A stretch of DNA of 64,000 nt, from the NCBI RefSeq assembly GCF_031769215.1, contig NW_026782284.1:558001-622000 (forward strand), written 5' to 3'. Position numbers: made by a program. This document shows, piece by piece, positions 6,001-9,000 of the stretch. Origin of the DNA: Ylistrum balloti. Taxonomy: Eukaryota. How positions within the stretch are numbered: position 1 is the first letter of the stretch; each line of letters opens with the position of its first letter.

Positions 6001-9000
6001 TCTCTTTTTTTCTTCCCTGTCCTCCAATATGTCCGCGTCATTGTCCTCCGAGTCATCAATGTCCAAAGGCTTTACCTGACATTGGGTTCCTCGTGTGTTG
6101 AAGCCAAACATTTTGGAAAAGAATGCTGGTACAATGGTTTCTCCGTTCTCAAGAAACAGTCGAATTTGTATGACTGTTATCAGGACTATAACCACACTGA
6201 ACACCAGCAGCGCGAGTAGATACATGGTCAGGTAGGACACGTTTTTGGAGTTATGTGGCAGTTCTGCAGTGATTAATCCCAGAAATACAGCATACGATAG
6301 ATACACTGTCACACAGAACGAGTTCCTCTCTCCTGAAGACAGGGGAATCAGGAACACACAGATGTTCAAAAATGCCAGCAGGATGACGGGTGCGATAATT
6401 GTCAAGACCACAAATTTAGGTCTTCGTTGTAGGTGGAAGAAATAATCTATAAAAGAAATGGACACTCCGTAGTCCCGCTCCCTATTTTGAACCTCGGATT
6501 TCACAATTGACCATTCGACATTTTCCTTGAACGAGCTGATGTCAAACGATTTTGACGTTGCCACAAGTGCCACTTCAGAAGAAGGAGAATTCCAAATTTC
6601 AAATACCAAAGAGCATTCCTGAGTATCAAAAGGATAATATGTTATATCGACCTCACATGTAACAACGAAACTGTCTGCTGGAAACCATTTTACCTTCCCA
6701 TCGGCGTGTACCACAGCGTTCGTAGACGATTGAGAAAGCATGTTTATTCTCCCAAATGTGTTGACAAGGGCAATGCTCGGAAGCCATATTGAGTTTCCAT
6801 CGATATGTACTTGTGAGATATTTCCAAACTCTGACGTGTTCCAATTTAGCACTTCGTCTGTCCATTGTATGATAAACCAACCAGCTATTACAAGTTTCTG
6901 TGACTTTTCATCGAATTCGTTTATTGAGCTCAGAAAGAAACTCATCTCCACAAGCAAAGGGTCACTTTGATTTAAAACGGGACGGATTCGCTGATCGTAA
7001 CCATCAAAAATATGTTTGTAAATATTTTTCACATTCTCTAAAGATGGTGATGGGACGATCTCTTTTGTCATCAAGGCCAGTAAGAACGAGGTCAAAATGG
7101 CGCCCACCGAAGTCATTTTTAACATACTGTACAATGCAGCGTACATTAACTAACACTAAAATGTTACTCTCGTGACGTTGCTGCAGCTCATTAGGCGTTT
7201 GTTGATGACATGGTGTTGGAATTTCCGGTCATATCAACTGAACCAGACATTCGTATATGTATACCGACGATAATCATCGGGAACGGGAAAGAATCAGGTT
7301 AATGAGTACAAATCGGCAACCCCGGCTTTAAAACTATGATACTAAATAATGATTTTTGTTAATACAAAGAAACTAGCGAAATTATTACCAATAATGTTTT
7401 GTGATCTTTCGTGTGATAAACAAGTTTTTAAACCTGCTAGATCTATAACACTTTGATGTGAATAGCTTAATTTGATCTTGTGTGAGCCAAAGTGTTTATT
7501 ATTTACACCCGATCAGGTCTACAAATCTAAACATTCAAAAGCGATTTAAACGCTTTGAAGTTCAAATACCTATAATTGAAGATGCATTAAAGTTGTCCAT
7601 TGATCTTGATGTCATCAAAAATAGCTTCATCGACAAAAGAGAATTCATTATTGACGCCTGTGTATCACCTCCTGCAATATTTCATCGGTATATCAAGTAG
7701 AACATATTGGTTATTTGGAACATTTTCTTCATGTTGGTAATGTCAATAGAATAGACGTATTATTACACACTCAGGGCAAGATTAGAGTATGACGTTTCGA
7801 TGACTACACGGTCACCTTCATCAGACAAATGACCAGTGTGGAGCGTACTAGCACTGATGTACGTAGTGTGCGAGATCTACACGGTCACCTTCATCAGACA
7901 AATGACCAGTGTGGAGCGTACTAGCACTTTTTCGGCTGTACTATAACCCTATGTACACTAAGGTCGAAAATAGTGTGACGAGATGGTAAACAGCTTATAG
8001 ACAAAACAAAAACACCAGATGGTAACAATGTATTGTAGTCATTTCGGCTACGCTCTGTTATAAGTGGGTTAAAAAGTTAGAATCTGGAACTGAAGAACAA
8101 GTACTAGAAATACACACAGCTGATTAGTTTAAATCGGTGATGAACATTCAAGTGAAATGATTTGGAACAGTCCGCTAAATCCTTGAAGTTTACCACTTTC
8201 TTATCTTCGTTTGGTTCATCACCATACCTGTATATCATTACAACTGTGACAATACTAACAAAGAGAGGATTGTTTCCGATTTGGCTGTACTCATCTACTG
8301 ACAAAGAAATACACCTCTTGTGAAATAAAATAAAGACAGACAATTCATTGGGTTCCATATTAGTTTGTATTTTTTCATACACATTACCATGGTAACTAAT
8401 TGGACCTGGATTCTATGAAATATCACCAGTTATAAGCAGAGTATTAATAAGAACAGATTTGTCCCTATGAAGGGATGTGTTATGTAGGTAGCATGAGATC
8501 TAGTACAACTGGCGACCATTACAGTAATATTCGTGTTTCCACACTAATCACGTGAGGAGAATGCCAGTTTTCAGCCTTAAATCTTTACCATGGTCTGCAC
8601 TTCAGCCCTAGCTAATGGATTAGACTGTCACCATATCCATGGATCCATCACAATTATTTCAGGGAATTATTGATGTAAATTTAAATCATCTGAACTATGT
8701 CGATTACCAATTAGCCACCATATTAAGCTGTTGCAGTTTCCTCCCTTCAAACACTAAAATCTTACGCACTCCGTATGGACGGGATGTATACGAGAGTTTG
8801 TGTGCGAGTGTTGTAAAAGTTAGGTAGGATAATGGGTGGAGACATTTAATGGGTAAAAATGGTAAAAGAAAAATGCCTTCATATTGTTACAGGTTGGTTT
8901 AGCCACGTTTAAATAAAAACACAAAACCTGTTGAGTGTTCTGATCATAGTTTACTGTGTGTACCGAAAGAGTATGAACTCTGTGAATATACAAAAATACA

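What the first reader, a model, noticed from the sequence alone, without database searches (positions are those of the whole stretch)
6166..6363. Pore-domain gene conversion tract shared among nAChR paralogs
Seen: 6166-6363 (paralog 1) and 23692-23889 (paralog 3) differ at only 2 of 198 nt, both synonymous. The extracellular domains are only roughly 55-60% identical in protein (estimate by eye). Sharing is mosaic: paralogs 1 and 3 match across TM2-TM3, whereas paralogs 2 and 3 share the adjacent block encoding RLFIEYGETPAPAS (from 16061 and 23648) where paralog 1 differs. Inference: recurrent ectopic conversion homogenises the channel module while ligand-binding domains diversify, a constant-region/variable-region architecture.
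Basis: partly seen in the sequence, partly recalled or inferred. Interest (0 to 1): 0.68.

Follow-up and report, generated by a model that had tools for sequence, protein, structure and literature searches.

The report
Gene conversion among scallop nAChR paralogs
Three neighbouring intronless acetylcholine-receptor-like genes of a scallop share an almost letter-identical ~200-base stretch encoding the channel pore, best explained by recent copying between the genes (gene conversion), an ordinary process seen here in a family where it had not been described.

Summary
The window is from the scallop Ylistrum balloti. It carries three intronless Cys-loop receptor genes on the minus strand: 5866-7146, 15814-17064 and 23386-24663.

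Positions 6166-6363 and 23692-23889 differ at 2 of 198 nt, both synonymous. All three genes share this core, which runs from late M1 to M3. dS is 0-0.04 in the core and above 1.1 in the extracellular and intracellular parts. Permutation tests give 0 of 200 to 0 of 10000.

The tract ends differ between pairs, so at least two events are needed. The island has diverged sequence on both sides and no intergenic similarity. The best explanation is interlocus gene conversion between tandem paralogs.

- Only about 200-270 nt are homogenised.
- Paralog 2 keeps six private differences, all amino-acid changing. Four match residues of orthologues, which suggests selection against conversion.
- Pecten and Argopecten paralogs show no within-species excess identity.
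- Extracellular domains evolve at dN/dS of about 0.3.

Reads and orthologous DNA could not be checked.

The parts
5866..7146 (-). Paralog 1 (p1). Intronless Cys-loop receptor gene, 426-aa ORF. The likely true start is the Met at 7116, as in the database model P0001 and its homologues.
   Evidence: ORF. Pfam Neur_chan_LBD 1.9e-51 and Neur_chan_memb 5.7e-13. 100% identity to an NCBI Ylistrum balloti protein.
15814..17064 (-). Paralog 2 (p2). Intronless Cys-loop receptor gene, 416 aa.
   Evidence: P0007.
23386..24663 (-). Paralog 3 (p3). Intronless Cys-loop receptor gene, 425 aa.
   Evidence: P0008.
6166..6363 (-). Core tract in p1 (residues 262-327). It covers the last third of M1, the M1-M2 loop, M2, the M2-M3 loop and most of M3.
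   Evidence: 2 of 198 differences from p3 and 6 of 198 from p2. dS 0.039 and 0.
6364..6378 (-). Block A in p1. These 15 nt are identical to p2 (16303-16317) but differ from p3 at 4 of 15.
16105..16302 (-). Core tract in p2. Its private differences, all nonsynonymous, are at 16182, 16185, 16206, 16209, 16221 and 16265. They encode QH in the M2-M3 loop, S and A at the outer end of M2, M in M2, and K at the M2 start.
16061..16104 (-). Block C in p2 (post-M3, V-RLFIEYGETPAPAS). Identical to p3 23648-23691 and diverged from p1.
   Evidence: p2-p3 differ at 1 of 45 over alignment codons 332-346, against 15-16 of 45 for either gene versus p1. Coordinates.
23692..23889 (-). Core tract in p3. Its private synonymous differences are at 23713 and 23821.
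23648..23691 (-). Block C in p3, identical to p2.

Best explanation
Three tandem, same-strand, intronless nAChR-like (non-alpha, 'beta-3-like') genes of the scallop Ylistrum balloti lie 8-17 kb apart. They have exchanged a short internal segment by interlocus (non-allelic) gene conversion.

Shown:
- An internal island of about 200-270 nt (late M1 to just past M3) has synonymous divergence of 0-0.04. On both sides, sequence is diverged to dS above 1.
- The island has different end points in the three pairwise comparisons. At least two conversion events are therefore needed.

Inferred:
- Conversion is confined to this segment because strong purifying selection on the pore-forming helices had kept enough nucleotide identity there for heteroduplex formation. 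The rest of the genes (about 60-65% nt identity) is too diverged. Homogenisation is thus a by-product that reinforces itself, not a designed constant region.
- The p1-p2 exchange is the most recent (0 synonymous differences). The exchange involving p3 is slightly older (2 private synonymous changes in the core, 1 at the edge of block C).
- The six p2-private differences are all amino-acid changing. Four of them equal states seen in orthologues. They are most likely kept, or re-fixed, by selection against conversion, so p2 probably has distinct gating or conduction properties.
For: - dS by region: core 0.039, 0 and 0.039. Extracellular domain 1.11-1.15. Intracellular loop plus M4 1.7 or saturated.
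- Max-chi-square segments: p1-p3 2/198 inside vs 389/1056 outside. p1-p2 6/213 vs 367/1023. p2-p3 13/267 vs 328/963. 0 of 200 permutations reached the observed value in each case.
- Longest identical runs are 107, 77 and 65 nt, against shuffle maxima of 43-48 (0 of 10000).
- Codons whose amino acid is the same in all three genes: 63 of 73 are the identical codon inside the island, 53 of 125 outside (Fisher p = 5e-10).
- Tract end points differ between pairs.
- Self-BLAST finds similarity between the loci only within the coding sequences, not in the intergenic DNA. This excludes a recent whole-unit duplication or a single crossover.
- Trees of the non-core parts put p2+p3 with Pecten P0009 and Argopecten P0010 (92/96 and 87/96 support). 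They reject p1+p3 as sisters (AU p = 0.024 and 0.016). Yet p1 and p3 are 66 of 66 identical in the core, while p3 matches its own-group orthologues at only 54-57 of 66.
- p2-private states: K, S, Q and H equal states of other scallop family members. P(6 of 6 nonsynonymous) is 0.009 at omega 0.3.
Against: - No reads were available, so an assembly or polishing contribution to the near-identity cannot be excluded.
- No orthologous DNA could be fetched. Donor, direction and timing are therefore unpolarised.
- AU tests do not reject monophyly of the three window genes (p = 0.055 on the ECD, 0.16 on all non-core columns), nor of all four Y. balloti genes (p = 0.094 and 0.090). That the paralogs predate speciation is favoured but not shown.
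- The TM-only protein tree groups by species only weakly (Yb clade support 42/0).
- GC3 is higher in the island, but weakly: Fisher p = 0.34, 0.021 and 0.040 for p1, p2 and p3. The comparison is also confounded by amino-acid composition.
- 6 of 6 nonsynonymous differences is not significant against strict neutrality (p = 0.16).
Confidence: 0.85

Rival explanations
1. Assembly or polishing artefact. Reads from one paralog were used to 'correct' the others, or a collapsed consensus was pasted into three loci.
For: Nothing direct. The tract length of about 200 nt is near short-read length. All database proteins for this species come from the same contig, so there is no independent confirmation.
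Against: - The three copies keep private differences inside the tract: 2 in p3 and 6 in p2, the latter matching ortholog residues.
- Tract ends differ between pairs.
- Mis-mapping needs the copies to be highly similar already, whereas the flanks are about 60-65% identical.
- An artefact could inflate the identity but could not create the island.
Confidence: 0.05
2. Constraint at nucleotide level. The stretch holds a functional RNA or DNA element (structure, small-RNA target, regulatory site) that freezes synonymous sites in every copy.
For: Synonymous sites are frozen. Such elements cannot be fully excluded by sequence alone.
Against: - The mRNA-sense fold is not unusual: z = -1.19, and 25 of 200 shuffles fold at least as well.
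- No Rfam family reached its gathering score in 5500-25000.
- The frozen stretch has different boundaries in each pair of genes. A fixed element would have the same boundaries in every copy.
- p2 tolerates six changes inside it.
Confidence: 0.04
3. Unequal crossing-over or a recent chimeric duplication, rather than short-tract conversion.
For: The genes are tandem and in the same orientation, with satellite-rich spacers.
Against: - A single crossover gives identity from the breakpoint outward into flanking DNA. Here the island is internal, with saturated divergence on both sides.
- There is no intergenic similarity between the loci.
Confidence: 0.03

Closest known systems
Regional gene conversion in clustered protocadherin genes (fugu, zebrafish, human). 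Yu et al. 2007, PMC1852091; passages read.
   Same: - Tandem paralogs show over 99% nucleotide identity in one part of the coding sequence and a diverged ligand- or partner-recognition part.
- The argument is the same: identity at synonymous sites cannot come from protein constraint.
- A GC3 rise in converted parts is used as support.
   Different: - In the protocadherins, many paralogs per subcluster and kilobase-scale 3' regions are homogenised, and GC3 is significantly raised.
- Here there are three genes, about 200-270 nt and an internal island. The GC3 signal is weak.
- There is no sign of the same pattern in two other scallop genera.
Selection opposing gene conversion between tandem ATP1A1 paralogs of Leptodactylus frogs. 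Mohammadi et al. preprint, 10.1101/2020.08.04.234435; abstract read.
   Same: Paralogs are homogenised by conversion, yet distinguished by a handful of amino-acid substitutions that persist. This resembles the six p2-private replacements with zero synonymous differences.
   Different: - In the frogs, selection and function were shown experimentally and across species.
- Here selection is only inferred from 6 of 6 nonsynonymous differences and 4 of 6 matches to ortholog states.
Expanded intronless, tandemly arrayed nAChR genes of bivalves. Jiao et al. 2019, PMC6896357; passages read.
   Same: The genes here are intronless, nAChR-like and sit in a tandem array in a bivalve, as that paper describes for oyster and pearl oyster.
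   Different: The main text of that paper has 0 occurrences of 'gene conversion' and 0 of 'concerted'. Its supplements could not be seen.
Cephalopod chemotactile receptors derived from nAChRs. Review PMC11526382; passages read.
   Same: This is a mollusc nAChR-derived family with divergent ligand-binding pockets on a conserved cation-channel scaffold. The window genes lack the vicinal loop-C cysteines.
   Different: - There, diversifying selection on pocket residues was reported.
- Here pairwise ECD dN/dS is about 0.3, and ligand and function are unknown.
- No conversion is reported together with these receptors in the searched library. In one search, only the review holds both terms, and 'gene conversion' appears there only in a reference title.

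Membership tests
Cys-loop (pentameric) ligand-gated ion channel subunit, nAChR-like | Ligand-binding domain plus transmembrane-region domain | tested here: met
   Pfam Neur_chan_LBD (E 1.9e-51 to 6.9e-41) and Neur_chan_memb (E about 1e-12 to 1e-13) in all three genes. The best solved relatives are nAChR alpha3, alpha6, alpha4 and alpha7 chains (E 2e-49 and weaker).
Cys-loop (pentameric) ligand-gated ion channel subunit, nAChR-like | Cys-loop: two cysteines separated by 13 residues | tested here: met
   The C-EVDIT[YF]YPFD[TS]Q[ED]-C motif is present in p1, p2 and p3 (translations).
Cys-loop (pentameric) ligand-gated ion channel subunit, nAChR-like | Cation-channel M2 with a G-E-[KR] start and a mid-pore Leu | tested here: met
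   Residues 241-336 align without gaps to the alpha3 chain of 6pv7. GER/GEK lies on that chain's GEK, and a Leu sits nine residues after the basic residue. The prime-numbering convention itself is recalled.
nAChR alpha-type (agonist-binding principal) subunit | Vicinal Cys-Cys in loop C | tested here: not met
   There is no CC in the loop-C region of any of the three genes. This is consistent with the 'beta-3-like' names given by NCBI. That the Cys pair defines alpha subunits is established knowledge, recalled.
Interlocus gene conversion tract | Local collapse of synonymous divergence relative to both flanks | tested here: met
   dS is 0-0.039 in the core and 1.1 or more in the flanks. Permutations give 0/200 and 0/10000.
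Interlocus gene conversion tract | Phylogenetic discordance between the tract and the rest of the gene | tested here: inconclusive
   Non-core data reject p1+p3 as sisters (AU p = 0.024 and 0.016), while the core is 66/66 identical. However, the core-only protein tree is poorly resolved, and monophyly of the three genes is not rejected (p = 0.055 and 0.16).
Interlocus gene conversion tract | GC3 enrichment from biased conversion | tested here: inconclusive
   GC3 is 0.51-0.56 inside and 0.42-0.45 outside. Fisher p = 0.34, 0.021 and 0.040.
Interlocus gene conversion tract | The tract is real in the DNA (read support), and the donor is polarised with an outgroup | not testable with these tools
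   There are no reads and no eukaryotic DNA collection.
Constant-region/variable-region receptor cluster (protocadherin-like concerted architecture) | Recurrent homogenisation of the same module across many paralogs and in related lineages | tested here: not met
   - Only 4 Y. balloti members were found.
- The fourth member, P0005, matches p1 at 61/66 in the core.
- Within-species A/B pairs of P. maximus and A. irradians match at 57/66. Their between-species matches are 57-59/66.
- These are protein-level data only.
Constant-region/variable-region receptor cluster (protocadherin-like concerted architecture) | Diversifying selection on the variable (ligand-binding) part | tested here: inconclusive
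   Pairwise ECD dN/dS is 0.27-0.36. Site-wise tests need more codon sequences than were available.

The most novel reading that the evidence does not exclude
Conversion and selection are in active conflict inside the pore. Repeated short-tract conversion keeps the M1-M3 helices of co-clustered, possibly co-assembling, subunits identical down to silent sites. Selection holds six p2-specific residues against it: the M2 start, mid and outer M2, and the M2-M3 gating loop. The silent-site-free differences would then directly mark the residues that give p2 a distinct conductance or gating phenotype. That would make this array a natural mutagenesis screen for functional pore determinants in the expanded bivalve nAChR family.
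Probability: 0.2. Interest if true: 0.5.

Novelty: new member of a known kind. Interest (0 to 1): 0.3.

Why it matters
- Trees of the hugely expanded bivalve nAChR family that are built on whole proteins or on transmembrane regions can be misled by such tracts. The extracellular domain should be used for orthology.
- The case shows that strong protein constraint can seed and sustain conversion in an otherwise saturated pair of paralogs.
- If the six p2-private replacements are selection-maintained, they point to testable determinants of channel function in a receptor family whose ligands and roles are unknown.
- Otherwise it is an ordinary example of a well-known process.

Tried and rejected
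- **RNA-element reading.** The fold of the sense strand is unremarkable (z = -1.19), and no Rfam family matched at gathering score in 5500-25000.
- **Whole-unit recent duplication or crossover.** Self-BLAST shows no intergenic similarity between the loci.
- **Core-only protein tree as a test of concerted evolution.** It groups by species, but with weak support (Yb 42/0, Ai 43/21). I treat it as suggestive only.
- **AU tests for species monophyly.** They did not reach significance for the three window genes (p = 0.055 and 0.16) or for all four Y. balloti genes (p = 0.094 and 0.090). So 'paralogs older than the speciation' is not established.
- **GC3 as a conversion signature.** The signal is weak.
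- **Search for further paralogs that could be donors of the p2-specific residues.** Three protein searches found only the same four Y. balloti proteins: 20 hits of 8000 candidates, 12 of 521 and 19 of 2890.
- **Polymorphic-sites run test for p1-p2.** It is not significant (run of 4; 8199 of 10000 shuffles at least as long), because the six p2-private sites break the run. The all-sites and max-chi-square tests are significant.

Full report
**What is there**

The window has no N. A protein search identifies it as the scallop Ylistrum balloti: p1 is 100% identical to an NCBI protein of that species, from a 1,074,090-bp contig. It is not human sequence.

Three uninterrupted ORFs lie on the minus strand:
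- p1, 5866-7146
- p2, 15814-17064
- p3, 23386-24663

Each ORF has the Pfam ligand-binding and transmembrane domains of Cys-loop receptors. Each has a C-x13-C Cys-loop. Each aligns without gaps from pre-M1 to M3 with solved nAChR chains. None has the vicinal loop-C cysteines, so they are non-alpha subunits. NCBI calls them 'beta-3-like'. tblastn finds only these three copies in the window.

**The observation**

Positions 6166-6363 and 23692-23889 differ at 2 of 198 nt (6187 and 6295), both synonymous. p2 carries the same core at 16105-16302, with 6 differences from p1.

By region:

| Region | dS | Note |
|---|---|---|
| Core | 0.039 (p1-p3), 0 (p1-p2), 0.039 (p2-p3) | |
| Extracellular domain | 1.11-1.15 | dN/dS 0.27-0.36 |
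| Loop plus M4 | 1.7 or saturated | |

Significance tests:
- A two-breakpoint max-chi-square scan picks alignment codons 266-331 for p1-p3 (2/198 inside vs 389/1056 outside). It picks 261-331 for p1-p2 (6/213 vs 367/1023) and 257-345 for p2-p3 (13/267 vs 328/963). 0 of 200 permutations reach the observed value in each case.
- The longest identical runs are 107, 77 and 65 nt, against shuffle maxima of 43-48 (0 of 10000).
- A run test restricted to polymorphic sites is significant for p2-p3 (0 of 10000) and p1-p3 (48 of 10000). It is not significant for p1-p2 (8199 of 10000), because p2's six private sites interrupt the run.
- Among codons whose amino acid is the same in all three genes, 63 of 73 are the same codon inside alignment codons 261-346, against 53 of 125 outside (p = 5e-10).

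**Anatomy of the mosaic**

- p1=p2 runs from 6166 to 6378.
- p1=p3 runs only to 6363.
- p2=p3 continues past the 3' end of the core, down to 16061/23648. This covers V-RLFIEYGETPAPAS, where p1 is diverged (15-16 of 45 nt).

At least two events with different ends are needed. p1-p2 have no silent difference. p3 has two private silent changes in the core and one at the edge of block C. The p1-p2 exchange therefore looks the most recent (inference).

**Why conversion**

- The island is internal, with saturated divergence on both sides.
- Similarity between the loci stops at the coding sequences. This excludes a recent unit duplication or a single crossover.
- The fold of the sense RNA is unremarkable (z = -1.19), and Rfam finds nothing. 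A fixed nucleotide element would also not have different boundaries in each pair.
- Protein trees were built from the non-core parts (13 and 12 rows). The fragment P0014 was left out of the ECD tree, the frameshifted P0013 out of the TM tree, and both out of the non-core tree. The distant or unnamed hits P0015-P0025 were not used.
- Those trees place p2+p3 with Pecten P0009 and Argopecten P0010 (92/96 and 87/96 support). p1 falls among other scallop sequences.
- p1+p3 as sisters is rejected (AU p = 0.024 and 0.016). Yet the two are 66 of 66 identical in the core, where p3 matches its own-group orthologues at only 54-57 of 66.

Against a strong version of this argument:
- Monophyly of the three window genes is not rejected (p = 0.055 and 0.16), nor is monophyly of all four Y. 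balloti genes (p = 0.094 and 0.090).
- The core-only tree groups by species only weakly.

**Limits of the 'constant region' idea**

- The core is already 53-60 of 66 identical across the whole subfamily in four scallop genera. Protein constraint alone therefore explains much of the amino-acid identity.
- Conversion explains the silent sites. It probably occurs here because this is the only stretch still similar enough to pair (inference).
- In P. maximus and A. irradians, the within-species pairs of the two groups are 57 of 66 identical in the core. That is no better than the between-species pairs, at 57-59. M. yessoensis copies are recent whole-gene duplicates (86-94% ECD identity).
- The fourth Y. 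balloti gene, P0005, is on the same contig but outside the window. It matches p1 at 61 of 66.
- Homogenisation is thus local, recent and limited to the three window genes.
- GC3 is somewhat higher in the island (0.51-0.56 vs 0.42-0.45). The support is weak (p = 0.34, 0.021 and 0.040).

**The p2 differences**

All six p2-private differences change the amino acid. In p1 coordinates they are 6326, 6282, 6270, 6267, 6246 and 6243.

I count from the basic residue after G-E, which aligns with the GEK of the alpha3 chain (the numbering convention is recalled). On that count they fall at:
- the M2 start: K instead of R
- position 15: M instead of L
- positions 19 and 20: A-S instead of T-A
- the M2-M3 loop: Q-H instead of K-N

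K and S are the states of all other family members. Q is the state of the two orthologues of p2's group, and H is the state of Argopecten P0010.

Six of six replacements with no silent change has probability 0.16 under neutrality. It is 0.009 at the ECD-like omega of 0.3, and 0.0001 at omega 0.1. The likeliest reading is that selection keeps these residues against conversion, as described for frog ATP1A1 paralogs (abstract). This is inference.

**Literature**

- Jiao et al. 2019 describe intronless tandem nAChR arrays in bivalves. The main text has no occurrence of 'gene conversion' or 'concerted' (find mode). Its supplements could not be seen.
- Searches listed no paper reporting conversion among mollusc nAChR-like genes. 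These searches cover only the held library.
- Regional conversion with a diverged recognition part is well documented for protocadherin clusters (passages).
- A TLR1/TLR6 conversion paper (PMC2077338) was seen only in the search listing.

**Unchecked**

- Reads, that is, the assembly-artefact question.
- Orthologous scallop DNA and the DNA of P0005.

**Verdict**

The finding is a real and statistically clear conversion island among three tandem paralogs. It is a new instance of a known process. The architectural interpretation is only partly supported.

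Noticed in passing
window 5866-5960 (3' end of p1): The NCBI model of p1 (P0001, 406 aa) departs from the uninterrupted ORF just after '...DVPLF'. It ends in a different 12-residue tail and so lacks M4. The intronless ORF gives an M4 that aligns with all homologues. The database model probably has a spurious intron.
   Followed up: partly
window 9942-15146: A 5.2-kb satellite lies between p1 and p2: a 53-bp unit in about 97 copies, 87% matches, GC 0.42-0.47 and strongly skewed.
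   Followed up: no
window 1465-3130; 21277-21722; 28516-29192; 36687-37234; 39782-41151; 43841-44623; 62456-63388: There are many further minisatellite arrays, with units of 85, 28, 61, 45, 38, 34 and 22 bp. The 291-aa 'ORF' at 62445-63320 is just the 22-bp repeat read in frame.
   Followed up: no
window 45148-45774 (+): A 208-aa ORF rich in hydrophobic stretches. It has no Pfam family. The best atlas hit is a eukaryotic 'hypothetical protein' cluster at 0.93. Whether it is an exon of a real gene is unknown.
   Followed up: partly
window 6121-6165 (p1, post-M3): p1 alone departs from the family-wide conserved RLFIEYG[ED]TP motif, which every other scallop member keeps. p1 reads RLFLENGETIVPAF there. 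This is a p1-specific divergence right next to the converted core.
   Followed up: no
alignment codons 381-430 (M4 region) of p1/p3: Nucleotide identity of p1-p3 (0.67-0.71) and p2-p3 (0.64-0.66) is somewhat above that of p1-p2 (0.54-0.57). It may be an older, decayed exchange or chance.
   Followed up: no
window 27496-28125 (-): A 209-aa ORF without a Pfam match, in a GC-richer stretch next to the 61-bp satellite. It is probably not a gene.
   Followed up: no
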